Positions 37,762-53,729 of a stretch of 64,000 nucleotides of DNA are shown one piece after another. Made by a program: the position numbers and the translations under genes. The first letter of the stretch is position 1; each line of letters begins with the position of its first letter. This DNA is from a bacterium (lineage in GTDB: Bacteria; Patescibacteriota; Gracilibacteria; Absconditabacterales; Absconditicoccaceae): NCBI GenBank assembly GCA_023245855.1, contig JAHFJL010000001.1:19975-83974 (forward strand), read 5' to 3'. The notes under the pieces are model-generated. The model searched no databases and was not told where the DNA came from. It saw nothing but the letters and a program-made list of their open reading frames with translations.

Positions 37762-38286
37762 TTATATTAATTTCTGATATACTCAATAATCCTTATTTGA
37801 AAATAATACAAATCTAACTTCTTCGATTTCTGGATATAATTCAACAAATCCTCTTACTGTTTCTACTGCGATTTTACTACATTCCTCTATCGGACATCCA
37901 TAAGCGCCCGTACTGATCGATGGAAACGAAATCGTTTTTATCCCATGATCCAATGCGATTTTCAAACTATTTTCGTAACAATGAAATAGATCATCTTTTC
38001 GGTCATCGTTTTTATAATCCGAGAATCTTGGACCGACCGTATGGATCACTCGTTTAGCGGGAAGATTTCATCATACGGTAGCTACTGCTTCACCTGTAGG
38101 CAAGCCTTTGGGATATTCAATTCTTGTAATATTTTGACACGCTTGTAAAATCATTGGTCAGCCTGCACGATGAATTGCTCCGTCTACGCCTCATCATCAC
38201 AAAAGAGTACTATTCGCAGCATTAACGATAGCATCAGTATTTTGAGTAGTTATGTCTCAGAGGATGAGAATAATAGTAGCAACCAT
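37762..38286 (-). CDS. Macro-domain protein (YmdB / O-acetyl-ADP-ribose deacetylase-like)
   Basis: [35 protein letters not shown]...RVIHTVGPRF...ISFPSISTGAYG. Three consecutive TGA (38191-38199) encode the conserved Gly loop. Confidence 0.9.
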
Positions 38287-38304
38287 AAGAGATATGAAGA
38301 TAAA

Positions 38305-40512
38305 TTAATTTTTCCAATGAGATTGAATGTATTTATTGGCTTCACTTATTGACATAGGTTCTGCACTAGTCCCCGCTCTAATATAAAATTCTTCTTTATT
38401 GTTATTATTCACAAAACATGGTCTATCGCTCAGCGATATTTTTATTACCGCAATATCTTTATCGTCAATGTTTTTGATGCTAACAGAAATGAATTGATGA
38501 AACTCTTTTCAAAGAAAATTATTGATGAGTTCAGTAAATTTTAGTACGAATCAATCTTTATTCTGCTTTTTTCACAATGTCTTATAATCATTTTCTAATC
38601 CTAGTATATTACTATTATCGTCAATACCTATAAGTAGAATCCCTCAGTTTGTGTTAAGGAAGGCACAAGTTTCTTTCATTACCTTTATCTCTAATTCTTT
38701 ATTAATCTCATTTCTAATTAGATCCCATCTTATAGATGATTTGAATTCTATCTTCTCTGTTTCTCATTCTTCAATAAGTTCTTCAATATCCATTTCATTA
38801 CTCATTTTTTTTCCACTTTCTATGTTCTCCATGAATTCATTTATCTTGGTCGCTATTTCATTTCTTCTGAATTCTATAAACGATTTATAACTATCTAGCT
38901 TCCATAACTCTTTTTGAGAAGGGATTAGTTGTGAGTCCAATGCTTCCATTTTGCGTTTCTTAATGATATCTTGGAAGTAAACGATTGGCTCTTTGTTGCT
39001 TATTGATTTATTCGTACCTCACGATATAAATGCTAAATTTGCTATTTCATTAATCTCCTTTTGATCATATTTATCTTTCATTAGTGATTTTGGGAAAATG
39101 TGATGGAATTGTATTTTATGCGATTTTCAAATATTCTTATCAGATAAACCCAGTCATGTCTTTCGATCCTTCGCTCCATTAGCTTTCAATACAAAATAAA
39201 GCATTGAGAATAAAGGACTTCTTATTGATTTATACGCAATATCCTCGCTATCAACAATAAACTTTTTAACATGTAATTTTAGTTGATTAATAAGCTCATC
39301 AACACTATTAGTTTTAAACAATATGGATACATCAGCATCCAACAATCATTCGCTTGATCACATACCATAATGTCCTCTCATATGAGCCAAGAAAAATCGT
39401 TTTAGTAATTTTCTTTCATTTTCAGAAGAAAGTTTTTCTTTATTATTAATTGCATATACTGCTAGAGGCAATAATAGGAATGGTGAAGATAGATATCCTA
39501 AATCATTTATTTGTGCGTTATTTCTCAAAAAATCTACAACAAAACGCAATCAGTCCATAACAGCGGGTCGATGCTTCTGGAACGTCTCTTTGTTTATTTT
39601 TGATACGGTCTGAAACTTACTTTGATGTGTAATGAGTATAACCAGCAAACGTATGGTAATGTTGGTATCAACAATATAGTCTGCATCATTTCAGAATTCT
39701 TTAGAAAATATTTCAACTTCATTCATAAATCCTTTCCACTTTGAGGTTATTTGTGCCAATGCCAAATCACTTCATCTCAATTTTATACCTAATGAATTCA
39801 CTCTAACAAAAATTTCCGTCACTTCTTCATATGACATTGATTTATCCAGAACCTGCATTACATATGGATATTCTTGAATTCATTTTAACTTTTGTATCCT
39901 TGCAGAATAAAAATCCCATATATCGTCATCAGAATTTATACCCTTTGGCTTTAAGAGTTCTTTCTCTGTCTTTCTAAATACATCTGATACTGAAATCCGA
40001 CTAGGATTATTCTTCAATGTTTTAGTGGCCACAACAAAAGTTCTTTTTTTAAATTCTTCTTGAATATCATATTTGGCTGTTTCTTCATCTTCTAACTCCT
40101 CGAAATCTTCTGGTATATCAGTCTCGTCATCCTCTATAACTTCTGATAAGGTTCACTCGGGATGATCTAAATTAAATAAAATATCTATTGGTTTTCTGCG
40201 ATACTTTACGATAATTGGTTCTCAGTTTATGACAGCAGATAGAGAAGTGATCCTTTGTTGTCCATCTAATAGTAATTGTTTTTGATTTGTCTGTTCCTCT
40301 GTTGGTCTTACAGCCAACTCCCTTTCATTACCAAATTCATCTGTTGCTCGTACTAATATTGTACCAGAAGGGTATCATCTATATAAAGAATCAATCAAAT
40401 CACGGACACGAGATGATGGCCGAACATATTTTCTTTGCATTTCTGGAAGAGCAAGCTCTCACCTTTTTACCTTATCAACTAAGCCTCTGACGGTAATATC
40501 AACTTTCTCCAT
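38305..40512 (-). CDS. GmrSD-like DUF262-DUF1524 nuclease fused to a C-terminal AlbA_2 (Schlafen-type) domain
   Basis: DUF262: LPEMQRKYVR...YRGYPSGTI...LLLDGQQRITSL. DUF1524 (His-Me finger): HKIQFHHIFPKS...NLAFISGGTNKSISNK. AlbA_2: ETEKIEFKSS...AFLNTNGGILLIGIDDN. I verified all 735 codons line by line; about 18 TGA=Gly and no TAA/TAG. Confidence 0.8.
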
Positions 40513-40597: not shown

Positions 40598-42094
40598 CTA
40601 AATCATCTTTTCTACTTCATCCAAACCTTTTTGAATCTGACCTTCAATTTCTTTAATCTGACCAATCAATACTTTTGGATTTTCATACTTCACTGCTATA
40701 TATTCTATCTTTTTATACTTGGAGATACTGAGGTCGTAATTATTTTTTTTAATCTCTTCCTTATCTACTCGGAACCATTTATCTCACTTGCTAGGCTCAT
40801 TATCATACTTACGATCAGTTACACATTTTGCAAAATTAGCTAATACATCAGGAATATTGTTATCGTTGATTGGAGATCTTTTGTCATCCAAACTAAAGCC
40901 ATCGGCTTGCAGATCATAGAACCACACTTTTTTTGTCTCATCTCATTTAGTAAATATAAGTACGGCTGTACTTACTCCAGCGTATGGTTTAAATACTCAT
41001 GATGGTAAACTAATAACTGCTTTGAGGTCTGTATTTTCTAACAATAGTTCTCTCAATTTTTTGTGAGCGTTGGATGAGCCAAACAAAACTCCGTCTGGAA
41101 CGATTACTCAACATCTACCCCCTACAACTAATTTATTATAAATTAATTCCATAAACAATAATTCTGTTTTCGTTGTTCCAAGTGTAAAATCAGGATTAAT
41201 ATCTCCTTTATCTATACTCCCCTTAAACGGTGGATTCATCAAAATCACATCAAATTCTGGAGCATGAGAAAATTGCTTCCCTAAGGTATCTTGATATTTT
41301 ATATTTGGTGTGGCAATACCGTGCATGATACAGTTCATCAATGCAATTCTAACCATCGTACTATCAAAATCAAACCCCGTCAATCCATCAGACTTTAGTC
41401 TTTTCCGATCTTTTTCATCAAGTAAATCTGCGGGATAATGGGTTCCGAATTCATCAGAAAAAAGAGCATCTTTTGAGGTATTTTGTTCTAAAATATGCTT
41501 GTAGGCATTGATCAAAAATCCTGCGGTTCCTGCTGCTAAATCAGCTATTTTATCGTGTTTATTTGGATTAACGACATCCACTATCATTTGGATGATATGT
41601 CTTGGTGTACGGAACTGTCCGTTTTTTCACGCACTTGCGATTTCATTCAAAAGATATTCATAAATATCTCCTGAAGTATCTTCGTTTTGTTCTGTAATAT
41701 GAAGATTTTCTAGAATATTTACCGCAGTAACTAACATGCTTGCTTTGGGAATAACGAGATTTGCGTCTTTTAGATTTCCTGCAAATCATTCTTCTGTATG
41801 CAATGTTTTGATAAATGGAAAAACAGCATCTCTTACATACGTAAACATTTCCTCTGCAGGCATTTGGATCCAGTGGCTTCGTCTAAGCTTTTCATTGCCC
41901 TCAAAAAGTGAGGCATATTTAAAAGAAGAAACTCTGTTTGCTTTAAGCACATTTTGTTTGTCTAATTCGTCCAATCTTTTCATGAAAATAAGAAAAGAAA
42001 TCTGTTCTATAGCAGTCAATGGATTAGCAATCCCTCATGATCGAAAGGTATTTCGTAATGAGTTAATCTGTGATTTAAGTTCGGGGTTGAGCAT
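40598..42094 (-). CDS. hsdM: Type I restriction-modification system, N6-adenine DNA methyltransferase subunit
   Basis: HsdM N-terminal domain ([23 protein letters not shown]), SAM-binding region ([10 protein letters not shown]), and catalytic NPPF (ILMNPPFKG). I verified the frame to TAG at 40600-40598. Confidence 0.92.
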
Positions 42095-42098
42095 GAGA

Positions 42099-43004
42099 TT
42101 AGTGTTTGAAAGATAAAACAAAATTGAATATCTGGTCAAAATCAAAATCAGGATATTTTTTTCATAAAACAGGATCGAGATCATTTGCTATCTGTATTTT
42201 CAAAGCATCATAGTGATCATCAATAGTATATCCACTCTCTGATTCTGCTACTTTGTGAGCAATAAGATCTTGAATGCTAACAAAATCAAAGCCTTGCTGC
42301 TGCATATACCAGATATCAAAGAAATCTCTGATCGCTGGTAATTGACGTGTCAGCGCAGCTCTCATCTTCTCTGCCATCATCTCTTCCAAAGACAGGCACG
42401 TGATACTCATCTCATCAAAGATGGGCTCTTCAAGAATCGGATCAATAAATACAGCATGGACTGTTCATGTTGTTGATGGCAAGTATTGTTTGCTGGTATA
42501 GGTCACTTCTATTTTGATTGTCTGTTGTTGCTGACTAAACATACTCGTGTAGCTAATCACGTATTTGAGATAGGTGTATTCTTTGGTTTTTAAAAAATGG
42601 TTGCCTTGTGCTCTTTTGTGATGATATTCATCAGCATTCAACTTCCGATTCATAATTTTGCAAACTTTTTTCATTTTTTCTCTCAGATGTTGAGCAAATT
42701 TCTCTCTTTTTCCATTGGTATTTACTAGAGGATCTTCAATACTTATAGAAAAATCTAAATCTTCACTCAGACGAAAATAGGGATAATATACCTTATTGAG
42801 GCATGTTCCTCCTTTGAAGGTTATCTCTGGGATGTTGATGGAAATCCGTTGAAGAAGTATGGTCAGATAAAAATCTTTTTCAAATTTTTCTTTGTCAAAA
42901 TTGGCTGTATTGCTTTTTTCAAATATCGATAAAAGATCTTCCTCGTTTTCTATAGGAAGCGCTGTTCACAAAAGTGTATCAATACGATCTATCAGCGTGG
43001 TCAT
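42099..43004 (-). CDS. AbiEii/AbiGii-family nucleotidyltransferase toxin
   Basis: ITFKGGTCLNKVYYPYFRLSEDLDF is the hallmark motif. Fragments 42162-42410 and 42465-42674 are in frame. The stop lies 4 nt before the hsdM start. Confidence 0.8.
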
Positions 43005-43633
43005 AGTTCCAAAAATTGTTTTACTAAAATTTGTACTCTTTGGCTACAATATTTCTGAGAAAGAGAAATAAGTTTGGTTGGAGAGATTATTTTCTTTTTG
43101 ATCTCTTGATAAATATCTTCGACATATTCCATCTTTCCATCGTTTTCATCAATCATCTGGATAAGCGCTCTTTCACTAGTCATACGATTGTACGTCCCAT
43201 ATCACTGAGCATCCACTTTTTCTATCCCTCGAAAAAATGACGGTCTGACCTGACGAAAAATAAACGTATATCCGGCTATATTTCTCTCGCCACGGGTACT
43301 GGCATTGTATACTGTAATCTTGTTCGCAAGCTGCTGGGAAAAATGATACTGATTGTACAGATACATTCCTCCTATGGAATACAATTTATTTTTTCCATAC
43401 TGTGCTAAGATTGTCGTAGCCAGCAGTCATTTTTTTTTGCTTGAGAGCAGATTGAGATAGAGTTCTCACCTTAGGATAGGAGAGAGTAATCAACGACTAC
43501 ATAAAGTATCTATTCTATATTTAGGAGCGAATTTATCCAAAATTTTTTGCAACAGAGAAATTTCTATGAATGGTTTATCATAGATTCTGAGTTTTTCTTC
43601 TATAGTTTTAAACTGATTGATCGGTATATTCAT
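42989..43633 (-). CDS. AbiEi-like antitoxin / transcriptional regulator
   Basis: 214-aa ORF immediately upstream of AbiEii and overlapping it by 16 nt. SERALIQMID segment is typical of AbiEi. Fragments 43001-43183 and 43202-43384 are in frame. Confidence 0.6.
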
Positions 43634-43780
43634 TTTTATTATTGTCATCTAAATCCAGCAATATTGTGTTTTTTTGATGACAGATTGCAAGAGGAAATTT
43701 GCATCTTATTTTTCTAATGCGTAAACAATATTAAAAATAAAAAAAAACAGTCGAGAACTGGAATCTTGTGGCTAGTGATG

Positions 43781-43835
43781 GAAGAATACTAAACTTCGGA
43801 ACAGGTATGGTAGTTACCGAAGTTTAGTATTCTTC
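43781..43835. repeat. Perfect 19-bp inverted repeat with 17-nt loop
   Basis: gaagaatactaaacttcgg - N17 - ccgaagtttagtattcttc, in the 380-nt gap between the Abi_C gene and abiEi. Confidence 0.8.
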
Positions 43836-43860
43836 GACGGGGAATCAAGTATTTGCAAGT

Positions 43861-44009
43861 ATATGTTAGATTTTCTTCGTTTTTTTAACATATTTATGAG
43901 ATATGTTAGATTTTGGAGATAATGTATACCCAATACCTATAAAATAATTTTATAGATATTTGCGGATTTTGATGAATAACTATAAAAAAATTAGGGATAT
44001 GTTAGATTT
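43861..44009. repeat. Three direct copies of ATATGTTAGATTT (operator-like)
   Basis: Copies at 43861, 43901 and 43997. The first is also half of the palindrome ATATGTTA-N16-TAACATAT. Confidence 0.7.
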
Positions 44010-44013
44010 CTTA

Positions 44014-44994
44014 CTATTCTTTAATGTATATTTTTCTTAATCTCACTATTCACTCTAGGGATAATTTAAATAGTTTGTTTCAAATTTTTATAGCATGATC
44101 ACCAGGAAAACTTTTTATAATTTGTATTAGCTCATTAAATGATTTTACTTCTGCAGGCAATGGGAAATTGGATATTTCTTTCTTTTTAATTTGATATTCA
44201 TACGAATCATTCAAAAACCAAGTTAACGTCTTTACAGAATTTAACATCAATAATGCATGATGTTTTAGCGGTTTAATTCTTATTTTTCATTCTTTATCTT
44301 TCAATTTTCTATGTCTATCTCACATAGAATTACATAATCTATCTATCGCATCTACTATTTGAGAAAATCACATTAACATTTGTTTAATTAGTTGATCCGC
44401 ATGTCAGTCAGGCACTAGATTTAATAAATTCTTAATTTTAACAAAATCTTTTTTAAGATCAGCACTTTCTCATAAAGATTCTCAAGTAATTTTTATATGT
44501 AATCATTCAAAAAACTCCTCTAAAAATGTAGATAGAGTGCCGATTGCTCAATCATAGTCTGTTTTCTTAATTTCATCTTCTGCTTTTTTTAAATGTTTTC
44601 CAATTTCCTGAGAAAGATCAATTTCTGGCTTTATCTCTAAGTCATCAGATTTTTGCTCTAATAGTTTCATTCATATTTTTTTTCATTCCTTTAATCTAGC
44701 ATCCGGAAAATCTATCTGTTTTAAATAACCCATAGCAATCTTGGTTTCAATATATTCAATGAGCTTTATTATGCTCTTGGCAATCATTTGATTACTTTCT
44801 AAAGTCCAAAAACTTCTCATTCTACTAGCTTTTGATTCTCCATTCTGGCTATATTTTTCGTCATAGATATTGATACCAACATCATCGTGGAAAAAATCTA
44901 ACATTGTTCTATTTGAAAAATCAAGAACATATCATCCTTTCATTTGGAATCATTGCTCTAATATCTGTTTATCTATTGATGATAGATCTGCCAT
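44014..44994 (-). CDS. Abortive-infection family protein (Abi_C-like C-terminal domain)
   Basis: 326 aa, every codon checked, about 19 TGA=Gly. C-terminal IDRLCNSMGDRHRK resembles the Abi_C motif (RN..G.aHG). Starts 6 nt after the hsdS stop. Confidence 0.5.
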
Positions 44995-45000
44995 TATTCC

Positions 45001-46134
45001 TTATAATTTAAAACTACTCTGCATTGTCGCCTGATACAGTTCCTCCAACTTCGCTAATGCTTGCTTATGCTTATCAGTACTAGCTTGGAGCTTGGTGATG
45101 ATGTCGGCAAATTTTTGCTGAAGAGAAAGCGGCGGAAGTGGAATATTTAAATTTCTTAAAACATCTAAGCTTAAAAATCATTGCGCTCATCATTTTCAAT
45201 TATTTCATAGTAAGGTTGTCTTAAATTGTTGAAAATTCAATAGGTGGGTTAAATAATATCATATTAAATTATTTCTATTTGGTTTAAATAATGCAACGTT
45301 TTTCATACTAAAAGGGAACTTAAATGTATTTAATACCGCTGTTCACATATTAACTCAAATATTTGTATATAATACATCTTCATATTCAGGATTACATCTT
45401 TGATATATGATTTCATGAACTTCGGAAGATACATAATCTAGATCAGAAAGATCAAATTGGAACTGTCTAATGTTTTTTCATGTTATAAACATGATTCATT
45501 TTTTTAATCTTTCTGGTGTGTCGTGGGTTCAATCAGTAATTTTATTACAGATACTTTTCATTTTCCTCACTTCCCATCCTTTCTCATTCGTCATTGGATC
45601 GCCAAACATCTCCAAAAATATCGCCTTCGTAAGTTCGTTAGTCTTGGTGATTGCTTGCTTTTTGAGGTCGATGAGGGACTGGAGTTTATCAAGTTTATCG
45701 ACGATGGTGCGTTGGGTAGCGAGAGGTGGGAGATTAATCTTTGTGTTCATGAATTCTGGTTTGGTTATATGTACCATAGTTGCTCCATGAGTTCTGCTCT
45801 CAAAATTTTTAATAAGAGAAAGCAACAAATAATAAAAGTATTTCTTATCAATAATTTGTTTATTTTGGATTATCTTAAAAATATGTTGGTTTAACCATGC
45901 GTCACCTCTATTTCGTATAAATGCTCACAAAGATCAAGATCGCGCGAATAACAAATCTCAATCTTCAACTAAATATTTTTTATCAATATTTTTTGAAGAA
46001 TAATTAAAAATAGTATCAGAATTATTTAGATTCTGTATTCTTATAATAGGCAATCCTTCCATTTCTCGCTCTGTTGGCTTAAAGGCTCTACCATTAATAT
46101 AGTCTGCTATTTCTCAAAGTTTATAAGTTTGCAT
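45001..46134 (-). CDS. hsdS: Type I restriction-modification system, specificity subunit
   Basis: Two target-recognition domains. They are separated and followed by the conserved helices PPLATQRTIVDKLDKLQSLIDLKKQ and PLPPLSLQQKFADIITKLQAS. Confidence 0.88.
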
Positions 46135-46141
46135 ATTATTA

Positions 46142-48109
46142 TTATTTTTTTAATGATGCTAAAGATTTGCTTATTTTTTTATCTCATTGAGTTTTGTTTT
46201 CTATTTTACTATGTTTACATATGGATTCATATGTAGTTTCTAGCTGTTGTCTTAAATATTCCAAACGTGTTCTATTCTCCTCAATAATATCTGACCATTT
46301 TCTACAATATACAGATACGTTATTGGTTGGAACCTTATGTATAAGTCATCTATCCTTCTCTCCCCAATTTTGATGGGATTCTATCAATTGATTGATTTCT
46401 CCACTGGTATCAAATTTATCTCAAACTAAGAAAAATTTCCAATCATAGTTGGATCAATTAAAGCGAGGCTCTTTTGTTATTACATTTAGATAATTCTTCA
46501 CCTGATCTACCTCTTTTCTTCATAGACTTATTTTAGGGTGTTTCAATTCAATCACAATATTCTTTACGTTTCATCATCTCCTGTCTTGTCTGCACATAAA
46601 AATATCCAACTCTTTGTTTTTATGCTCATTTTCGATATAAACTTTCTCATCGATCCCATAAAGAACAAACAAAAATTTCCTTAGATTCTGTTCAAAGTCA
46701 GGTTCTGCTGCTCAGATTAAAAAGTATTCATCTCAAAATAATCGATAATGGCTCTCTACCAATTTTTGCAAATTATGTACTTCATCTGCCTTTAGTTCCT
46801 CATCAAAAACATATTGCTCTAAAAACTTTATTACATTTAATCTCTCGTTTATTATATCAATAGTCCTAATTATATTAGATAGTTTTATATCTTTAAGTAA
46901 GGTACCAAACCTTTCTTTTTCCATGTCAGAAAGGGCCAAAACGTTATCTATAATATCAAAAAGTTTGTGACTATTTCCTTCTTCCAATATCGCCGATATT
47001 AATCTAATAAATATTTTTCTTTGGTCGTCTCATAATTTGGTGAATATCTTAGGCTCAACCAGATAAATTTTTTTTATTGTTTCTTTTATAATTCCTGTTT
47101 TCATTTCTCATACTATGGAATCTTCCTCATTAGTAATATCTTCGATATTGGTGTTAACATAAGTCTCGGCTAACGATTCAATGAATGGTCTTCTAAATTC
47201 ATTTAATTGTTTGTTTAGCTGAACCATAAAATCTTTGAAAGTTTCTCTATTATTTTGACTATTCTGTCCCTCAAATAAGAGATTATCTCATCCATCATTT
47301 AATATTTGCTTATCAAAAAAAGATGACTGAATAAATACGCTATGGTGGAAATCATCGGATTGTCTATTTAAGGAAGTTCATTCTTTTAATATTTCCTTGT
47401 CTGCAGAATTTATAAAATAATTTTTAGATTCTTCCTCTATGAGTTTATCTTCCCATTTTATAAATTTTATATCAAATTTTATCTTGTCTATAATTAAAGA
47501 ACTTAGCTTCTCCATAGATATGTACTTTTTATATTCCAATTCTTTCTTATTTATACGTATTGTAATTCCTTTCAATAATAAAATCCAAGAAAATCTAGCG
47601 ATTAAATATTTTTCTAAATCGGTTTCCATGAAGAATTTACTTACGCCAACATCTTCGAAACTAACTTTGGTTCCTGTATACTTACTTTTCTTAGAATTTT
47701 TATCTAAAATGTCATATTTGCTTAAATCTCTAGAAGATACTTTCAATTTTATATATCATCCCTCTTGTCTTGATTCCCACGTTGCAGAAGAAGAAAAACA
47801 GAAAAATGTCAGTCTTCATACTCAATCTTTGCCGAAGACATCTGACTTATTGAGAGATCTATTCTTCTTTGAAAAAAGAAAAACATCAAAAGTCGTAGAT
47901 AAATCTTTCTCAGAAAATCCTCCTCAATCATCAATTATTTCAAATTTAGAAATATATCAAGTATCATCAAAAACATAATTGATATCGATATTCTTTGCTT
48001 GCGCATCAATTGAATTCTCTATATATTCTGAAATCGCTTTATCGGGAGTGTAGTCCTTTAGTCTCTTTCTTATTCAATCATTAGTTACAATTAAATTTTT
48101 TTGTGCCAT
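46142..48109 (-). CDS. GHKL (HATPase_c) ATPase fused to a C-terminal PD-(D/E)xK nuclease-like domain
   Basis: N-terminus: AISEYIENSIDAQAKNIDI...FEIIDDGGGFSEKDL...FGKDGVGRLTFF (Bergerat fold motifs). C-terminus: ELDIFMCR...NIVIELKHP...VDQVKNYL (D..ExK, Shedu/DUF4263-like). 655 aa verified, about 19 TGA=Gly. Confidence 0.65.
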
Positions 48110-48135
48110 AATAGCAATTTACAAACTAAATATAT

Positions 48136-50139
48136 TTATTTATCTTTCTGACTTAAGATAAATTGATAGATATTTTCAGCAACTTCTTTAGCCTCAGCAG
48201 ATAAATCTTCATAATTGTTTATATATTTAATTGCGGTTTCATAAAATTTAACCTTATCTCGTATAGTTCATCATTTGGCCTTATATCTTGTTTTCATCTT
48301 TTTTACCAATAATTTTTTTTCTATGAATTCACCTAACTTAGTCTTTCTGTGATCTCCTATTCTTGTTTTAAATTCCACAGACTGATTTCAACATTTTTTT
48401 TCTAATTCCGTTACGGCATCTTTTAGCACGTTCAATGACAATAGATTTTCTATTTCTCTCACTGGTAATTTATTATATCTCTTTTCTAGTTTTTCTTTTA
48501 ATTTTTCTTTCCTCTCTTTTTTTCTATTTTCTCAATCTTCATCTATAATCAAAAAAGACTTACCACATAATCTATCAATATTAACTTGTTCATGTCAATT
48601 TTCATCATCTAAGAAAGAAAAATGAGTAATATTATTACCTCAATATTCAACAAAACAATAATCAATGTCTTGTTTAACTTCTATAAAATTTGGATTCTCT
48701 TTTTTTTTCTGCTTTTGATAAAGATCAAGATATCTACCTAAATACAATCTATCAGTAATACCTTCGACCCATATTGTGCTATTAGCAATAAATATAGATG
48801 ATTTTTGCACTCAGAGTTCTAGCAATATATTTTCATCACCTGACTTAATATTTTCTATGATAAATTGTTTGTTTTCTGTCTTTCTAGCCTTAAAAATTGA
48901 TATATTGTCAAAGTCCAGGGTCAGATCCAAAAAGTTATTTGAATGTGTTGTTATAAAAAACTGATGCCCAATAAAATCAGAAGTTTTAATCAAAACTTCA
49001 ATGAGTTTTCTTTGCATTCAAGGGTGTAAATATAATTCTGGTTCTTCTATAAAGAAAAGCCCGTTAGTGCATTCAAATAGCGGTAATGTAATTGTTATTA
49101 ACGTTTGTATTCAGTCTCACAGATCATAAATAGCCCTATCGTCTTCGTCTCATATTTTTATATGTAATATTCCATTTTCTTTATCTCGTTTGTCTTTATT
49201 AACATCTCTTCATAAAATATTATTATCCTTTGATATCAAAGTAATATCCTGCCCATCGAATAAATTCTCCTTCAAAAATTCCTGATATTTCTTGATTTTA
49301 TTTCTTTGATCTTGTGTTCACAAAAGCATCTTTTTTACTATTTCGTTAAGCTTTTGTCAAGAATTTATATCCACTTTATAGTCTTTCCCAGCTGTTGTAA
49401 AATAATCTTTTTTTACTTTTTCTTCAAATAAGTCATTATTAATCAAACCTCTCAAGGAATCTACTACTTTGGATGTTACGTCTGATTGAGTTCAACGTCA
49501 AGAGAACATATCTTCCACCCATTTTACTAAAGGTCATCTTATGTTATTAACAGATCTTAAGGCTGGAGTATAATTTTTTGTATAATCAACAAATTTAAAT
49601 AAAGCTAATTCATTAAGATTCTTTATAATATCTGATGCACTAGAAATTTTTTCTTTTAGTGAATTAATGAATTTAACATTTTCCATATAGATAATTCATC
49701 AACTTTGTTTTTGAGGATCACATAAAAGTATTTTATTCAACGTATTTTTCATTGATAATATATCTTCAATATTCTTTTTAGAAAAAAATATATCAAAATT
49801 TCAAGTTAAAGTTGTTTTATCTAAACTGAAAGATCACATATTAAAATTTCAAAATCAAGCATTTTGTTGGTCTCGAACTTGAAGCAAGGATTTTATTAAT
49901 TCATTTAAAGAAGTAATAAAGTCTTTAAAATTGAATGTTAATCTTGTTGGTATAAATTTAAACTCTTCTATCTTTGAAATTTCCCTCATAAAGCGACTCT
50001 TTCCAGAATTATTTGGTCATATAAAAATATTTATTTTTGATAAGCTATTTAATTCTTGCAATCTATTCCCATCATTTCAGAGAAAATCCTTAAAATTTTC
50101 ATTTTGCGGTATTTGAATTTCTTTGAAAATATAGGTCAT
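48136..50139 (-). CDS. OLD-family / PARIS-like ABC-type ATPase fused to TOPRIM (DUF4435-like) nuclease domain
   Basis: Walker A IFIGPNNSGKSRF, signature-like LGDGIQTL, Walker B GLFFIEEPELYLHP, and H-loop FFITTHSNNF. TOPRIM-like region: TIWVEGITDRLYL...FVEYGG...LIIDEDG. 667 aa verified line by line, with 25 TGA=Gly. Confidence 0.75.
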
Positions 50140-50149
50140 ATTGCAACTT

Positions 50150-50245
50150 TTACAAACTAAATATCTCTACAAACTCTCCCGCTGAAGACGGGATAGACAT
50201 CCTTTCTTCGCTTCCTTCTGCTTACGCAGCCAATCAAATGCTCAC
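50150..50245 (-). pseudogene. Degenerate duplicate of the last ~25 codons and stop of hsdR
   Basis: The first 28 nt are identical to 51030-51057, and the last 43 nt are about 80 percent identical to 51063-51105. A 25-nt hairpin-containing insert interrupts it. Confidence 0.7.
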
Positions 50246-50277
50246 CTATTAAATATTGGTTTGTCAAGCAAATTCTC

Positions 50278-50306
50278 TTGCAAAATAAGGTAGATATGAG
50301 TATAAT
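50278..50306 (+). promoter_or_regulatory. Near-consensus sigma70 promoter on the plus strand
   Basis: TTGCAA (50278-50283), exactly 17 nt, then TATAAT (50301-50306). Confidence 0.45.
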
Positions 50307-50312
50307 AATACT

Positions 50313-50382
50313 GGAATTGAAGCTCTTATCGAACTGTGGTCTTTATGGCCTGCGTTCCCTTACGGGATAGATAAGGGTTTTT
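50313..50382 (+). ncRNA. Putative ~70-nt small RNA (promoter-to-terminator unit, no ORF)
   Basis: Bounded by the promoter above and by the hairpin ccctta-cgggataga-taaggg plus T5 (50357-50382). Convergent with the DUF3800 gene, whose stop is at 50389. Confidence 0.3.
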
Positions 50383-50388
50383 CCTTTA

Positions 50389-51021
50389 TTATAATTTTTG
50401 TCTGGGTCGTTGTTGGACATTGATTTCTCTATGAGATATAAAACGACGAAAGTCATTTTTACTTTTACTGTCGCCATAATAGCGATGTATTACTCAGCAT
50501 ACATAATCTACAAGTTGGACAAGATTGTCCGTATGTGAACGGTGCATAGCTACTTTTTTAATCCTCTTACAATTTTTAGTATTCAGTTTGTTTCTTAAAT
50601 ATTTTCATAAGGCATATTTAAAACCTTCGGATCATGTTTTATCTATAATAACGGTAGCATTTTCTATTTTATCTTTTGCGTTTTCGAAAACATATCAACA
50701 TATACATTTATAAAAAGAATCTTTATACTGAAATCATTTTCATGTTACGATTTTCTTATTTAAGACAAAACCATGATAGAAAAAATTGTAATTTGCTACA
50801 GCTTCTAAAAACAATTGTCTGATTTTGTCAGAGTTTTTTTTAAAATGAAATTCAAAATTATCGTGGAGTCAAAGCTCTCTTCTTAATAAATCTATTCTTT
50901 GACTACATGCAATTGCTTCATCGTGATCGTTGAAGACAACTAATGCTATAGAAAAAAATGGACTTGATCATTGATCAAACTTAAAACCCGAATCTCCACT
51001 TTCATCTATATAAATAAGCAT
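50389..51021 (-). CDS. DUF3800-family protein
   Basis: MLIYIDESGDSG... and C-terminal HRSHTDNLVQLVDYVCGVIHRY are DUF3800 hallmarks. 210 aa, 9 TGA=Gly. Starts 8 nt after the hsdR stop. Confidence 0.7.
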
Positions 51022-51029
51022 ATATATGA

Positions 51030-53729
51030 TTACAAACTAAATATCTCTACAAACTCTATCAATTTCTTCGCTTCTTCCTGCTTAAATAATCTATCAAACG
51101 CTCACATGCCAAAGGTTGTCTCAAACACGGGACTATAAAAGTCGTCGTAAGTAATATGCTTCTTCTGAATAATCAATGACTTCACGATCTGCAAAAACTT
51201 GATCTGCGCAGAGTTGAAGTTATTCCCATGGATATGCTGTTCAAAGATTTGATTTACCTCTTGTTCCCAACCAGGCAAAGTACCTTTACCTAACGCCACC
51301 TTGATTAACTGTTCAAAGCTTGCTGTAGGTCTCCCATAGGCTTTCCTCAAATTAAGGACGTTGATATGATACTCGGTATTATTGAGCATCGTTTCAAGTT
51401 CTATAATGTCGCCTTGTGTTAACTCTTCGTTGTTAAGTATCTTCTGGATAGCTTTGGAACTCTTGGCATAGTCTTCCAACTGATGCACAAAAAGTTCCCG
51501 ATACTTATCAGAAGCCATCTTTTTGCCTTCGGTGTATTCTATCCATCTCCTTTCGATGACGGTATCTTCGATATCTGTGATCATAATCTCCGGTTTGGTG
51601 GTGTCCTTGTATTTCATCAGTCAGGTAAACTCTTTTTTTAAGTCTTGGATCTTATCCAAAGATATTTCTTTCCAGTACTTAGGACTAAGTACTTCTTTGA
51701 TAGAAGTTTCTTTATCTTTTACTTTGCTGATATTCCTAGATAGGGCGTTAATATCTGAAGCTATCTTATTTACCAGCACTTTTGTTTCATCGCCCTTTAC
51801 TAAGGCGACTACAAACTGTTCATTCTTAATTAAAAATCTAAGTTCATCAGCACTATGTTTGTCATAGTATCTTACTAATGGTGCAAGTTTTTGAAGCTGT
51901 TCATATGGATTAACTGCCATATTATCAAAAATAGATTCTGACATTACATTATCAATCAAATCTTTGTGAGCGAGTAGTTCGTCGTTTGGTTTCAATCCTT
52001 TGACAAAAATCAGTATCTCTTTTTTTGTCTTCTCGAAATACTTAGTATCTTGTCTATTCTCAAATAGCTTAAGTTGTTCTATCTTAAGTTCAAAGTATTT
52101 TTGTTGGAGCGATATTCATTGTTGGTTTGGTGGTAGGAACTTGTGTGCTTCATCGAAATTGAGCGCGAAATCGATAATCAGAAAATCTTTTTTATCTTCT
52201 CCAGGACCGTAGACATTAGGACGCAACCTCGTTCACCTTCCTACCATCTGCCAAAATTTAGCTTCTGATAATACCTTTTTGGCGAAAACGAGATTTACTA
52301 ATTCAGGAACATCTACGCCCGTATCTAGCATATCTACTGATATAGCGACTCTGTATTTCTTCTCTGTCTTATATTTTTTGAAGTCTTTAAGTAATTGGTC
52401 AGCCCTTTCTACATTGGAAGTAATGACTACGGAAAATTTGTTTAAGTGAGGATAGAGTTCCTCGAATGTTTCCTGTAAGTGTTCGGCATGTTTTTGATTC
52501 ATCGCAAAAATAATAGTTTTCCCCGGAAGTCCGTCTTCACCTTTATATGCTTGTTCCATAAATTCTCTGATGATAGCTCTATTAGTATCTTTGTTGTCGA
52601 TTTTTTTGCCGATCTCAGAACCCTCGAAGTTATAGTCCTCAGGATTTTTTCATTCTTTGATAAGTTGTTCTCTGAGGTCTTTCGGTAATTGTCTTCATTT
52701 GATTCCTTGAATCTGAAATTGTGTCCTTGCCATCAAGACTCTGTACGGCACGAGATATCCTTCCTGTACCGCCTCATCGAGTCAATAATTGTAGGTCGGT
52801 CATTTTTCATGACAATCAAATTCCTTGTACGTACTTCTATCGATAAAATCCACGGGCGTAGCGGTAAGTCCTACATGGTAGCAATCGAAGTGGTCAAGAA
52901 TAGCTCTCCATTCTCCATAAATTGATCTATGTACTTCATCCACGATAATCATATCAAAATATCCACTACTGTATCTGTCCAAATAATTAATCATTGTCTG
53001 ATAATTCGCTGAATAGAGCCTCGCGTTATCATCAGTTTTTCCCGTCTCTATTTTAGTTTTTGGCTCCTCCGGGAAATATACTTTAAATCCATCGTCAAAT
53101 GCCTGATCCCTCAAAGCTGTCCTGTCTGTGAGAAATAATATCTTTTGCGCATTATGCGTTTTCAACATCACATCAATCAATCCCATAGCGGTTCTCGTCT
53201 TTCCGCATCCCGTTGCCATCACAAGCAAAAATTTTCTTTTACCGACACTTATTCATTCTGTAACGGATTTGATTGCTGCTATCTGATAGTGTCTACTTGC
53301 TATATCTGGATCCACTTGTTGACTATTTGGTGATGTTTGAGTCTCATTGAGAAATTTGAGTCTATGTAAGTCATGCAGAGTGAAAAATGTCCTGACTTTT
53401 CTTGGTGATTCTTCTTCAGCAGAATTATAAAAATGAATTTCTTTTCCATTAGAAAGAAAAATAAACGGTTGAAATCACTGTTTATCTTTGAGAAGGATAG
53501 AATATTCCAATGCTTGATATTCTCCATCTCTTGGTGATCTGCTAAACTTTTTTGCTTCGATAATAGCGAGAACTTTTCCATCAGTATCTAACAAAGCATA
53601 GTCTGCAAATAAGGTAGTTCAATTTCTATCTATAGGAAACTCTAGGACTACTTGCCTATGATTATTTATATCCCAGCCAGCTTTCTTGAGTTTGGTATCT
53701 ATCAATAAACGAGTCTCTTTTTCGAGCAT
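51030..53729 (-). CDS. hsdR: Type I restriction enzyme, R (helicase-nuclease) subunit
   Basis: N-terminal nuclease motif ADYALLD...AIIEAKK. Helicase motifs VMATGCGKT, DEVH, LTATP, DMLDTGVDVP and QMVGRGTR. Long C-terminal helical domain. Fragments 51102-51617, 51621-51995, 52233-52559 and 52800-53228 are all in frame with ATG 53729. TAA stop at 51032-51030. Confidence 0.92.

What the first reader, a model, noticed from the sequence alone, without database searches (positions are those of the whole stretch)
46142..50139. Candidate novel two-gene module between hsdR and hsdS: ABC-ATPase-TOPRIM protein followed by GHKL-ATPase-PD-(D/E)xK protein
The gene at 48136-50139 has ABC/OLD-type Walker A, signature, Walker B and H-loop motifs plus a DUF4435/TOPRIM-like VEGITD...DED domain. 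This is the architecture of OLD nucleases, GajA, or fused PARIS AriA-AriB. Twenty-six nt downstream, the gene at 46142-48109 combines a Bergerat-fold GHKL ATPase (IENSIDA, IIDDGGGF, GKDGVG) with a C-terminal D...ELK nuclease core resembling the Shedu DUF4263 domain. I know of no described system that pairs an OLD/PARIS-like protein with a GHKL-nuclease protein; Gabija pairs GajA with a UvrD helicase and Septu pairs an ATPase with an HNH nuclease. The two genes could be one system or two stacked single-gene systems.
Basis: inference. Interest (0 to 1): 0.8.

Follow-up and report, generated by a model that had tools for sequence, protein, structure and literature searches.

The report
Two stacked single-gene defence nucleases
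The two genes are real, but they are not a new two-gene system: each belongs to an already described family of stand-alone anti-phage ATPase-nucleases (an OLD-family nuclease and a GHKL "paraMORC3"/Shedu-type nuclease) that happen to sit side by side in a restriction-modification operon.

Summary
Read with genetic code 25 (TGA=Gly), the window has two intact minus-strand genes, 48136-50139 and 46142-48109, 26 nt apart. They lie between hsdR and hsdS of an EcoEI-type type I R-M operon.

- **Gene A** is an OLD-family ABC-ATPase/Toprim nuclease.
- **Gene B** has a GHKL ATPase, an S5-type transducer, a helical linker and a C-terminal E-D-ExK nuclease.

The proposed novel two-gene module is not supported.

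- **Gene B's architecture is known.** It was named paraMORC3 in 2008 and later classed as a GHKL-type Shedu. One such protein, VcSduA, was shown in 2025 to defend alone.
- **Gene A's family stands alone.** It has more than 2,500 homologs and no conserved partner, which fits Class 1 OLD by context.
- **The two families do not co-occur.** None of 88 gene-A loci holds a gene-B relative. Of 80 gene-B loci, only three hold any ABC-ATPase neighbour; two are complete Gabija systems and none is a gene-A orthologue.
- **Each occupies the hsdR-hsdS slot without the other.** Nine loci, mostly Bacteroidota, read hsdR-B-hsdS. The closest gene-A relative reads hsdR-A-DUF3644-hsdS.

Best reading: two independent single-gene systems stacked in an R-M insertion hotspot of a dense defence island. 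Interest is low.

The parts
48136..50139 (-). Gene A, 667 aa under code 25 with 25 TGA-Gly codons. An OLD-family ABC-ATPase/Toprim nuclease of the stand-alone (Class 1-like) type.
   Evidence: ORF under TGA=sense. Pfam AAA_15/AAA_21. PADLOC AriA, GajA and Old models; GajA PDLC00091 covers aa 361-661. The only solved relative found by sequence is 6P74, Thermus scotoductus Class 1 OLD. More than 2,500 homologs of about 620 aa, several named 'OLD family endonuclease'.
48925..50043 (-). Gene A ABC ATPase module (aa 33-405): Walker A GPNNSGKS (49996-50019), signature LGDGIQ (49105-49122), Walker B FIEEPE (49036-49053), LHPG (49018-49029) and H-loop TTHS (48940-48951).
   Evidence: Motifs are invariant in alignment A3; coordinates.
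48445..48792 (-). Gene A Toprim nuclease core: WVEGITDR with E459 (48748-48771), VEYGGNNITH (48622-48651), IIDEDG with D533 and D535 (48532-48549), and REIEN (48445-48459).
   Evidence: E459, G460, R464, E498, D533 and D535 are invariant in A3. PADLOC GajA models span this part. Pfam OLD-like_TOPRIM gives only E=0.13, and DUF4435 is absent.
48110..48135 (-). 26-nt A-B intergenic spacer (ATATATTTAGTTTGTAAATTGCTATT).
   Evidence: No terminator-like site lies on the minus strand between hsdR and hsdS.
46142..48109 (-). Gene B, 655 aa with 19 TGA-Gly codons. A paraMORC3 / GHKL-type Shedu-like ATPase-nuclease.
   Evidence: ORF. Pfam HATPase_c_3. Full-length family of about 670 aa in about 500 species genomes. 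Architecture described in the literature.
47717..48052 (-). Gene B GHKL ATP-binding domain (aa 20-131): motif I EYIENSIDA with E28, N32 and D35 (48002-48028), IIDDGGGF (47915-47938) and GKDGVGRLTF (47804-47833). An S5-type transducer follows, to about aa 290.
   Evidence: Invariant columns in A1 and A2. The AF2 model of homolog P0006 superposes on MutL LN40, MLH1 and Hsp90 over 300-320 columns.
46280..46792 (-). Gene B C-terminal PD-(D/E)xK (E-D-ExK) nuclease domain: E443/Q448 helix (46766-46789), D502 (46598-46612), E521-x-K523 (46535-46555) and Q536 (46490-46510).
   Evidence: Invariant residues in A1, A2 and A4. HSDR_N_2 matches 40/45 members and SduA_C 1/45. PADLOC SduA models match 18/45 and 10/45 weakly. 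The AF2 model shows an alpha-beta-beta-beta-alpha-beta core at pLDDT about 80-90.
51030..53729 (-). hsdR, the EcoEI-type type I restriction subunit and upstream flank of the slot.
   Evidence: Pfam ResIII, EcoEI_R_C and HSDR_N. Its C-terminus is 81% identical to the hsdR of L089.
50389..51021 (-). DUF3800 gene, a separate cassette between hsdR and gene A.
   Evidence: Pfam DUF3800 4e-15; PADLOC PDC-M04A 3e-10.
50320..50384 (+). DUF3800-IX RNA motif (Rfam RF02968) in the DUF3800-gene A gap.
   Evidence: 50.2 bits against a gathering score of 36.8; E 8e-8.
45001..46134 (-). hsdS, starting 7 nt after the gene B stop; downstream flank of the slot.
   Evidence: Pfam Methylase_S, two stretches, 1e-41; gap.
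40598..42094 (-). hsdM. It is separated from hsdS by an AbiJ-like gene (44014-44994) and an AbiEi/AbiEii pair (42989-43648 and 42099-about 43004).
   Evidence: Pfam N6_Mtase and HsdM_N; Abi_C/AbiJ, AbiEi and AbiEii hits.

Best explanation
Genes A and B are two independent, self-contained anti-phage ATPase-nucleases. Each was inserted as its own cassette into the variable hsdR-hsdS slot of a type I R-M operon, in a TGA=Gly (code 25) bacterium. Gene A is an OLD-family enzyme. By analogy with P2 Old and T. scotoductus OLD (inferred), its ABC ATPase head binds and hydrolyses ATP as a dimer and controls a two-metal Toprim nuclease that nicks or degrades DNA. Gene B is a paraMORC3 / GHKL-type Shedu-like enzyme. 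By analogy with VcSduA (inferred), an ATP-driven GHKL plus S5 clamp gates a C-terminal PD-(D/E)xK nuclease that cuts invading DNA directly. Shown here: the gene models, the genetic code, the domain architecture, the intact catalytic residues, the lack of co-occurrence, and the fact that each family occupies the same R-M slot without the other. Inferred: the biochemical activities, the triggers, and the independence of the two proteins in this particular host.
For: Gene B's family keeps the GHKL motifs, an S5-type module and the E-D-ExK nuclease motif. This is the published definition of paraMORC3, which is also described as occurring stand-alone without conserved neighbours. GHKL (HATPase_c_3) Shedu homologs with an Hsp90/MORC-like middle domain are described, and 602 Shedu genes lie inside R-M loci. 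VcSduA, a protein of this architecture, protects alone, and its E27A and K557A mutants are inactive. Gene A's family has a full ABC and Toprim motif set and its only solved relative by sequence is the Class 1 OLD 6P74. Its members sit alone in Bacillus, Moraniibacteriota, Methanosarcina and 80 metagenomic loci, with no neighbour cluster shared by more than 3 loci. On co-occurrence, 0 of 88 gene-A loci contain a gene-B relative, and 47 of those have at least 2 kb downstream. The gene-A HMM finds three ABC-ATPase ORFs in the 80 gene-B loci. Only the L006 one is full length, and it is a GajA of a complete Gabija system; blast clustering shows a second Gabija in L067. On slot sharing, 9 of 80 gene-B loci read hsdR(EcoEI type)-B-hsdS with 1-4 bp upstream gaps and no gene A. 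The closest gene-A relative (55% identical, beside an hsdR whose C-terminus is 81% identical) reads hsdR-A-DUF3644-hsdS with no gene B. In the window, a DUF3800 gene with its own Rfam RNA motif is a third cassette in the same slot.
Against: The two genes are co-directional and only 26 nt apart, and no terminator-like site lies between hsdR and hsdS. They are therefore probably co-transcribed, so functional cross-talk cannot be excluded. Both have similarly low GC, 0.26 and 0.29, against 0.36 for the window. No heterodimer model and no experiment was possible. Contexts of the closest gene-B relatives (46-47% identical, recoded organisms) sit on contigs too short to show what lies upstream. Equivalence to VcSduA rests on architecture and motifs, not on a sequence comparison, because its sequence could not be obtained.
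Confidence: 0.8

Rival explanations
1. One reading: A and B form one novel two-gene system in which an OLD-like ATPase-Toprim protein works with a GHKL-nuclease protein.
For: The gap is 26 nt, both genes are on the same strand, and no terminator is predicted between them. Both have similarly low GC. ABC-ATPase plus REase-fold pairs do exist as systems, such as WonAB and PD-T4-4.
Against: The pair is seen only in this genome lineage. None of 88 gene-A loci holds a gene-B relative, and no gene-B locus among 80 holds a gene-A orthologue. Each family is full-length, catalytically complete and widespread on its own. A protein of gene B's architecture works as a single gene. The closest gene-A relative has DUF3644 in place of gene B.
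Confidence: 0.05
2. Gene B is a functional accessory of the EcoEI-type type I R-M enzyme, the paraMORC role proposed by Iyer et al. (ATP-driven DNA looping or cleavage linked to the R-M complex). Gene A and DUF3800 would be unrelated insertions.
For: Nine of 80 gene-B loci read hsdR-B-hsdS, with 1-4 bp gaps to hsdR; most overlap hsdS by 11-17 nt. About 8 more have hsdM, hsdS or hsdR adjacent. In the window, gene B's stop is 7 nt from the hsdS start. Iyer et al. proposed R-M-linked roles for paraMORCs, and Gu et al. suggested Shedu may complement R-M.
Against: About 60 of 80 loci have no R-M gene within the flanks. Iyer et al. noted that nuclease-bearing paraMORC3s are mostly stand-alone. VcSduA protects when expressed alone in E. 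coli.
Confidence: 0.12
3. Gene A is a Gabija GajA or a fused PARIS AriAB whose partner has been lost or replaced by gene B.
For: PADLOC GajA, AriA and AriAB models are among gene A's top hits.
Against: Those hits are weak and partial: about 65 bits on GajA, and AriAB covers only aa 358-469. True GajA proteins score 778-970 bits full length and have an adjacent GajB. No UvrD-like gene lies near gene A or its homologs. Pfam DUF4435 is not detected.
Confidence: 0.03

Closest known systems
paraMORC3 (Iyer, Abhiman and Aravind 2008), also Shedu with a GHKL N-terminal domain (Type 1D of Gu et al. 2023); validated example V. cholerae VcSduA (Adams et al. 2025)
   Same: Gene B has an N-terminal GHKL domain with intact ATP motifs, an S5/Hsp90-like middle module and a C-terminal E-D-ExK PD-(D/E)xK nuclease. 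It is about 650-680 aa, sporadically distributed across phyla, has no conserved partner, and often lies in R-M loci and defence islands. The motif-I glutamate is at E28, against E27 in VcSduA.
   Different: The window protein misses Pfam SduA_C and the PADLOC SduA models at normal thresholds. Its nuclease scores better against HSDR_N_2. It is encoded with 19 TGA-Gly codons in a recoded organism. Direct sequence comparison with VcSduA was not possible.
Class 1 OLD-family nucleases (P2 Old; Thermus scotoductus OLD, PDB 6P74)
   Same: Gene A has an N-terminal ABC ATPase with OLD-type motif variants (LHPG after Walker B) and a C-terminal Toprim with conserved Glu and DxD. Its family occurs as a single gene without a conserved partner. 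6P74 is the only significant solved-structure hit by sequence.
   Different: The relationship is distant (E 4e-6, partial). Gene A is longer, 667 aa against 528 aa for the 6P74 chain. Here it sits inside a type I R-M operon, whereas the 2023 review describes Class 1 OLD genes as not lying near other defence genes.
Gabija (GajA plus GajB; Class 2 OLD)
   Same: GajA has the same ABC-ATPase-Toprim architecture as gene A, and PADLOC GajA models are among gene A's best hits.
   Different: No UvrD-like GajB is present. Matches are weak and partial: about 65 bits, against 778-970 bits for genuine GajA in L006 and L067.
PARIS (AriA plus AriB, or fused AriAB)
   Same: It uses an OLD-type ABC ATPase with a Toprim-family nuclease, and AriA models hit gene A's ATPase part.
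   Different: The AriB-type DUF4435 is not detected. The AriAB model aligns only to aa 358-469.
WonAB / PD-T4-4 / 'OLD-ABC ATPase + novel REase' operons
   Same: These are the known two-gene systems that pair an OLD-type ABC ATPase with a PD-(D/E)xK nuclease.
   Different: Their ATPase lacks a Toprim domain and their nuclease is a small protein without a GHKL module. Their pairing is conserved across genomes, whereas the A-B pairing is not.

Membership tests
paraMORC3 (gene B) | N-terminal GHKL domain with conserved ATP-binding motifs | tested here: met
   Pfam HATPase_c_3 at 2e-18. E28, N32, D35, D60xGxG and GKxGxGRLTF are invariant or nearly so in the family.
paraMORC3 (gene B) | S5-type (transducer) domain after the GHKL domain | tested here: met
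   The AF2 model of family member P0006 (37% identical; mean pLDDT 80) aligns over 304-322 columns with MutL LN40 and MLH1 N-terminal GHKL+S5 fragments, E 2e-11 to 1e-10. The test used a homolog, not the window protein itself.
paraMORC3 (gene B) | Conserved C-terminal globular domain with the E-D-ExK motifs of the restriction-endonuclease fold | tested here: met
   E443, D502 and E521-x-K523 (plus Q448 and Q536) are invariant. The PD-(D/E)xK family HSDR_N_2 matches 40/45 members.
paraMORC3 (gene B) | Sporadic, laterally mobile distribution; nuclease-bearing members have no conserved neighbourhood | tested here: met
   About 500 species genomes across many phyla. No neighbour cluster occurs in more than 11 of 80 loci. 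The family is also on plasmids and in 2 phage records.
Shedu (SduA) | DUF4263 / SduA_C nuclease domain | tested here: inconclusive
   The window protein has no SduA_C hit at E<=0.01 and no PADLOC hit. In the family, Pfam SduA_C matches 1/45 (9e-4), and PADLOC SduA models match 18/45 and 10/45 with best E 7e-5. A C-terminal profile found no PDB sequence hit. The literature places this architecture in Shedu.
Shedu (SduA) | Homology to the validated GHKL-Shedu VcSduA, and defence that depends on the ATPase Glu and the nuclease Lys | not testable with these tools
   The VcSduA sequence and homolog table are truncated in the held supplement. No experiments were possible.
OLD-family nuclease (gene A) | N-terminal ABC ATPase linked to a C-terminal Toprim nuclease with conserved acidic residues | tested here: met
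   Pfam AAA_15/AAA_21. Walker A, signature, Walker B and H-loop, plus E459, E498 and D533xD535, are invariant. PADLOC GajA models cover aa 361-661. Pfam OLD-like_TOPRIM gives only E=0.13. 6P74 matches at 4e-6.
Class 1 OLD (gene A) | Single gene without a conserved partner (class is defined by genetic context) | tested here: met
   Variable neighbours in 4 hosts. Among 88 loci, no neighbour cluster is shared by more than 3 loci.
Gabija (gene A as GajA) | [quoted passage not shown] | tested here: not met
   The neighbours are DUF3800 and the GHKL protein. No helicase partner appears near homologs. Genuine Gabija in L006 and L067 shows what a true match looks like.
PARIS (gene A as fused AriAB) | AriB-type DUF4435 Toprim domain and a full-length AriAB match | tested here: not met
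   No DUF4435 hit, even at E<=1 on the C-terminal part alone. PADLOC AriAB aligns only to aa 358-469 of 667.
Proposed novel OLD + GHKL-nuclease two-gene system | Conserved co-occurrence of the two families across genomes | tested here: not met
   0 of 88 gene-A loci contain a gene-B relative. The gene-A HMM hits 3 ORFs in 80 gene-B loci, and the only full-length one is a Gabija GajA.

The most novel reading that the evidence does not exclude
In this recoded lineage the co-transcribed OLD nuclease and GHKL-nuclease have become functionally coupled, with each other or with the type I R-M complex whose operon they occupy. For example, one might sense stalled or inhibited restriction and activate the other. 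That would make the hsdR-hsdS slot a platform for integrated rather than merely co-located defence.
Probability: 0.06. Interest if true: 0.6.

Novelty: new member of a known kind. Interest (0 to 1): 0.17.

Why it matters
The finding matters little as a discovery, because both proteins fall into described families and the pairing is incidental. It has three modest uses. First, it shows that OLD-type and GHKL/paraMORC3-type nucleases are carried, fully adapted to TGA=Gly, by a recoded organism. Public protein records translate both genes with the wrong code (Trp at 44 glycine positions), which would hamper defence-system detection. Second, it documents the hsdR-hsdS and hsdS-hsdM gaps of EcoEI-type type I R-M operons as cassette hotspots. 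Across relatives these gaps hold paraMORC3, OLD, DUF3800, DUF3644, Abi, RT, Fic and Schlafen genes. Third, gene A's large stand-alone OLD clade sits inside R-M operons in two recoded genomes. That is circumstantial support for a defence role of Class 1-like OLD nucleases, which a 2023 review lists as an open question.

Tried and rejected
- **Table-11 ORF calling** gave only fragments, so I replaced it with my own code-25 translation.
I modelled the homolog P0006 instead.
- **A C-terminal-only, single-sequence AF2 model** failed (pLDDT 36) and I discarded it. This used the second and last structure job, so gene A was not modelled.
- **Foldseek of the full-length model** against PDB and BFVD returned only GHKL-module hits in the top 50. 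The fold neighbours of the nuclease domain could not be listed.
- **A C-terminal profile against PDB sequences** gave no hit.
- **Gabija and fused-PARIS assignments for gene A** were considered and rejected.
- **The 45-residue ORF end upstream of the closest gene-B relative (L090)** could not be assigned to HsdR or gene A; all E-values exceeded 1.
- **Cross-checking my loci against the published VcSduA homolog list** failed because the supplement is truncated.
- **Promoter and terminator scans** were uninformative: promoter-like sites were no more frequent than in shuffles.
- **A tRNA-Gly(UCA)** was not found in the window; it holds only tRNA-Lys.
Full report
**Gene models and genetic code**

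With the standard bacterial code the region 46-50 kb holds only short ORFs. Treating TGA as a sense codon more than doubles the ORF-covered bases in the window. It also restores two long minus-strand ORFs at 48136-50166 and 46142-48118.

TGA falls on glycines that are invariant in the relevant families: Walker A GPNNSGKS, GHKL IIDDGGGF and GKDGVG, and the macro-domain GGGGVDG. The code is therefore 25 (TGA=Gly).

The public protein records for both genes (P0054 and P0001, on a 91-kb NCBI contig) carry Trp at every one of these positions. They were translated with the wrong code.

**Neighbourhood**

All genes from about 38.3 to 53.7 kb run on the minus strand. In transcription order they are:

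- hsdR, 51030-53729 (ResIII + EcoEI_R_C + HSDR_N)
- a DUF3800 gene, 50389-51021
- gene A
- gene B
- hsdS, 45001-46134
- an AbiJ-like gene
- an AbiEi/AbiEii pair
- hsdM, 40598-42094
- a GmrSD-Schlafen fusion

The gaps are 8, 249, 26, 7 and 6 nt and so on. No terminator-like site lies on that strand between hsdR and hsdS. Rfam places a DUF3800-IX RNA motif at 50320-50384, in the 249-nt gap next to the DUF3800 gene. The DUF3800 gene plus its RNA therefore looks like a cassette of its own.

**Gene A**

Pfam finds AAA_15 and AAA_21. The best PADLOC hits are AriA, GajA and Old models, and GajA models extend over aa 361-661, the Toprim part. An alignment with 19 homologs shows these features as invariant:

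- Walker A
- signature LGDGIQ
- Walker B FIEEPE, followed by LHPG
- H-loop TTHS
- Toprim residues E459-G, E498-YGG and D533-x-D535

The only solved structure reachable by sequence is 6P74 (E 4e-6). A review identifies 6P74 as the full-length Class 1 OLD of Thermus scotoductus. No NCBIfam model reaches its cut-off. Pfam DUF4435 is absent, and OLD-like_TOPRIM appears only at E=0.13.

More than 2,500 homologs of about 620 aa exist, several labelled 'predicted ATP-dependent endonuclease of OLD family'.

Gene A is not Gabija. Genuine GajA proteins, found by chance in loci L006 and L067, score 778-970 bits full length and have an adjacent GajB. Gene A scores about 65 bits and has no helicase neighbour.

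It is not fused PARIS either, because the AriAB model aligns only to aa 358-469.

**Gene B**

Pfam finds HATPase_c_3, plus a sub-threshold HSDR_N_2 (PD-(D/E)xK) match at aa 487-544. PADLOC finds nothing. Full-length homologs of about 670 aa exist in about 500 of 185,579 species genomes, spread over many phyla.

The family conserves two sets of motifs:

- the GHKL motifs E28/N32/D35, D60xGxG and GKxGxGRLTF
- a C-terminal E443...Q448...D502...E521-x-K523...Q536 pattern

An AlphaFold2 model of family member P0006 has mean pLDDT 80. P0006 is 37% identical to gene B, uses the standard code and keeps all the motifs. Its first ~320 residues align with the MutL LN40, MLH1, Hsp90 and Topo II ATPase regions, so this part is a GHKL plus S5-type transducer. 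The C-terminal part has an alpha-beta-beta-beta-alpha-beta core at pLDDT about 80-90.

Of 45 family members, 40 match HSDR_N_2 weakly and one matches Pfam SduA_C. PADLOC SduA models touch 18 and 10 of the 45, with a best E-value of 7e-5.

**What is already known about gene B's architecture**

Iyer et al. (2008) defined paraMORC3 as GHKL + S5 + a C-terminal E-D-ExK restriction-endonuclease-fold domain. [quoted passage not shown]

Gu et al. (2023) list Shedu homologs with a HATPase_c_3 GHKL fold plus an Hsp90/MORC-like middle domain among the enzymatic N-terminal types. They also report 602 Shedu genes encoded inside R-M systems, including Type I.

Adams et al. (2025) showed that V. cholerae VcSduA, a GHKL + DUF4263 protein, protects on its own when expressed in E. 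coli. The E27A and K557A mutants are inactive, and the authors state that such proteins were previously annotated as paraMORC3. Gene B meets every architectural criterion of paraMORC3. Membership of Shedu by the DUF4263 model is only borderline at the sequence level.

**Test of the two-gene hypothesis**

I fetched 80 genomic loci encoding gene-B relatives.

- Single-sequence and HMM searches with gene A's family find three ABC-ATPase ORFs in them. In L006 it is a GajA of a complete Gabija system on the opposite strand. In L015 it is a 388-aa Septu/AriA-like ATPase without Toprim. In L028 it is a 258-aa fragment 7 kb away.
- Clustering of all neighbours shows no partner in more than 11 of 80 loci. 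The top clusters are HsdM, HsdS and HsdR.

For the reciprocal test I collected 88 loci encoding gene-A relatives: 80 metagenomic, plus contexts in Bacillus, Moraniibacteriota, Methanosarcina and others.

- None contains a gene-B relative under either code, and 47 have at least 2 kb downstream.
- Gene A's family has no conserved partner at all.

**The shared slot**

Nine gene-B loci, mostly Bacteroidota, read hsdR(EcoEI type)-B-hsdS, with 1-4 bp gaps to hsdR; most overlap hsdS by 11-17 nt. Several continue with a Schlafen/AlbA_2 gene and then hsdM. About eight more have hsd genes adjacent.

The closest gene-A relative (P0055, 55% identical, from another recoded organism) lies beside an hsdR whose C-terminus is 81% identical to the window's. 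Its operon reads hsdR-A-DUF3644-hsdS-(274 aa)-RT-Fic-hsdM.

Each family therefore uses the same slot without the other, and the slot's content varies between related operons. In the window the cassette genes are AT-rich (GC 0.26-0.29, against 0.37 for hsdR). They use TGA for glycine more often than GGN. Their closest relatives are also from recoded organisms, so they have evolved for a long time within recoded lineages.

**Mechanism (inferred from the families)**

- **Gene A:** the ABC heads engage on ATP and regulate a two-metal Toprim nuclease that nicks or degrades DNA, as for P2 Old and TsOLD.
- **Gene B:** ATP-driven dimerisation of the GHKL + S5 clamp controls the PD-(D/E)xK nuclease, which attacks invading DNA directly, as proposed for VcSduA.

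The steps actually shown here are the intact catalytic residues and the architectures.

**Rival readings**

- A true A-B module: about 5%.
- Gene B as an accessory of the type I enzyme: about 12%. The tight hsdR-B-hsdS arrangement in 9 loci supports it. Roughly 60 of 80 loci without R-M genes, and VcSduA's autonomy, argue against it.
- Gene A as a degenerate Gabija or PARIS: about 3%.

**Verdict**

The 'novel two-gene module' is not supported. These are new members of two known kinds of single-gene defence nuclease, stacked in an R-M hotspot of a defence island. Interest is low.

Noticed in passing
window 50320-50384 (+): Rfam DUF3800-IX RNA motif (RF02968; 50.2 bits against a gathering score of 36.8). 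It lies 4 nt from the stop of the minus-strand DUF3800 gene but is called on the opposite strand, in the 249-nt gap before gene A.
   Followed up: partly
window 46142-50139; public proteins P0001 and P0054: The public protein records of both genes carry Trp at all 44 TGA positions, so they were translated with code 4 rather than code 25. The closest relatives (P0002, P0003, P0055) show the same artefact. This would degrade family and defence-system detection for these organisms.
   Followed up: yes
L004, L005, L007, L008, L012, L021, L022, L029, L064: There is a recurrent hsdR(EcoEI type)-paraMORC3-hsdS arrangement, mostly in Bacteroidota, with 1-4 bp gaps to hsdR and, in most loci, an 11-17 nt overlap with hsdS. 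In several loci a Schlafen/AlbA_2 + HATPase_c_4 gene follows before hsdM. The tight coupling hints at co-expression with the type I enzyme.
   Followed up: partly
L089:1-10426: A related recoded organism has a homologous R-M operon whose hsdR C-terminus is 81% identical to the window's. It carries a different cassette set: an OLD-like gene, DUF3644, a 274-aa unknown, a reverse transcriptase (RVT_1) and a Fic protein between hsdR and hsdM, followed by a Bro-N gene.
   Followed up: partly
window 37762-40512 (-): A GmrSD (DUF262/DUF1524) protein is fused to a C-terminal Schlafen AlbA_2 domain (PADLOC HEC-05, 1e-38). A macro-domain ORF follows immediately; its reading frame abuts the GmrSD stop. 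The macro domain was recognised by eye only.
   Followed up: no
window 42099-44994 (-): An AbiJ-like/Abi_C gene and an AbiEi/AbiEii toxin-antitoxin pair occupy the hsdS-hsdM gap. The type I operon therefore hosts at least five foreign cassettes.
   Followed up: partly
window 46142-51021 against 51030-53729: The cassette genes use TGA for glycine more often than GGN (gene A 25 against 15, gene B 19 against 15, DUF3800 8 against 5). hsdR and hsdM prefer GGN (11 against 34 and 7 against 24), which tracks their higher GC.
   Followed up: no
L006:5656-9500 and L067:12250-15449: Complete Gabija systems (GajA plus GajB) lie directly next to paraMORC3 homologs in Flavobacterium petrolei and Clostridium oryzae. 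This is defence-island co-location, and it served as a calibration for gene A.
   Followed up: yes
phage records OR544134.1 and OR544131.1: Two Pasteurella phage records encode a full-length distant relative of gene B (about 25% identity, 95% coverage), annotated as a hypothetical protein.
   Followed up: no
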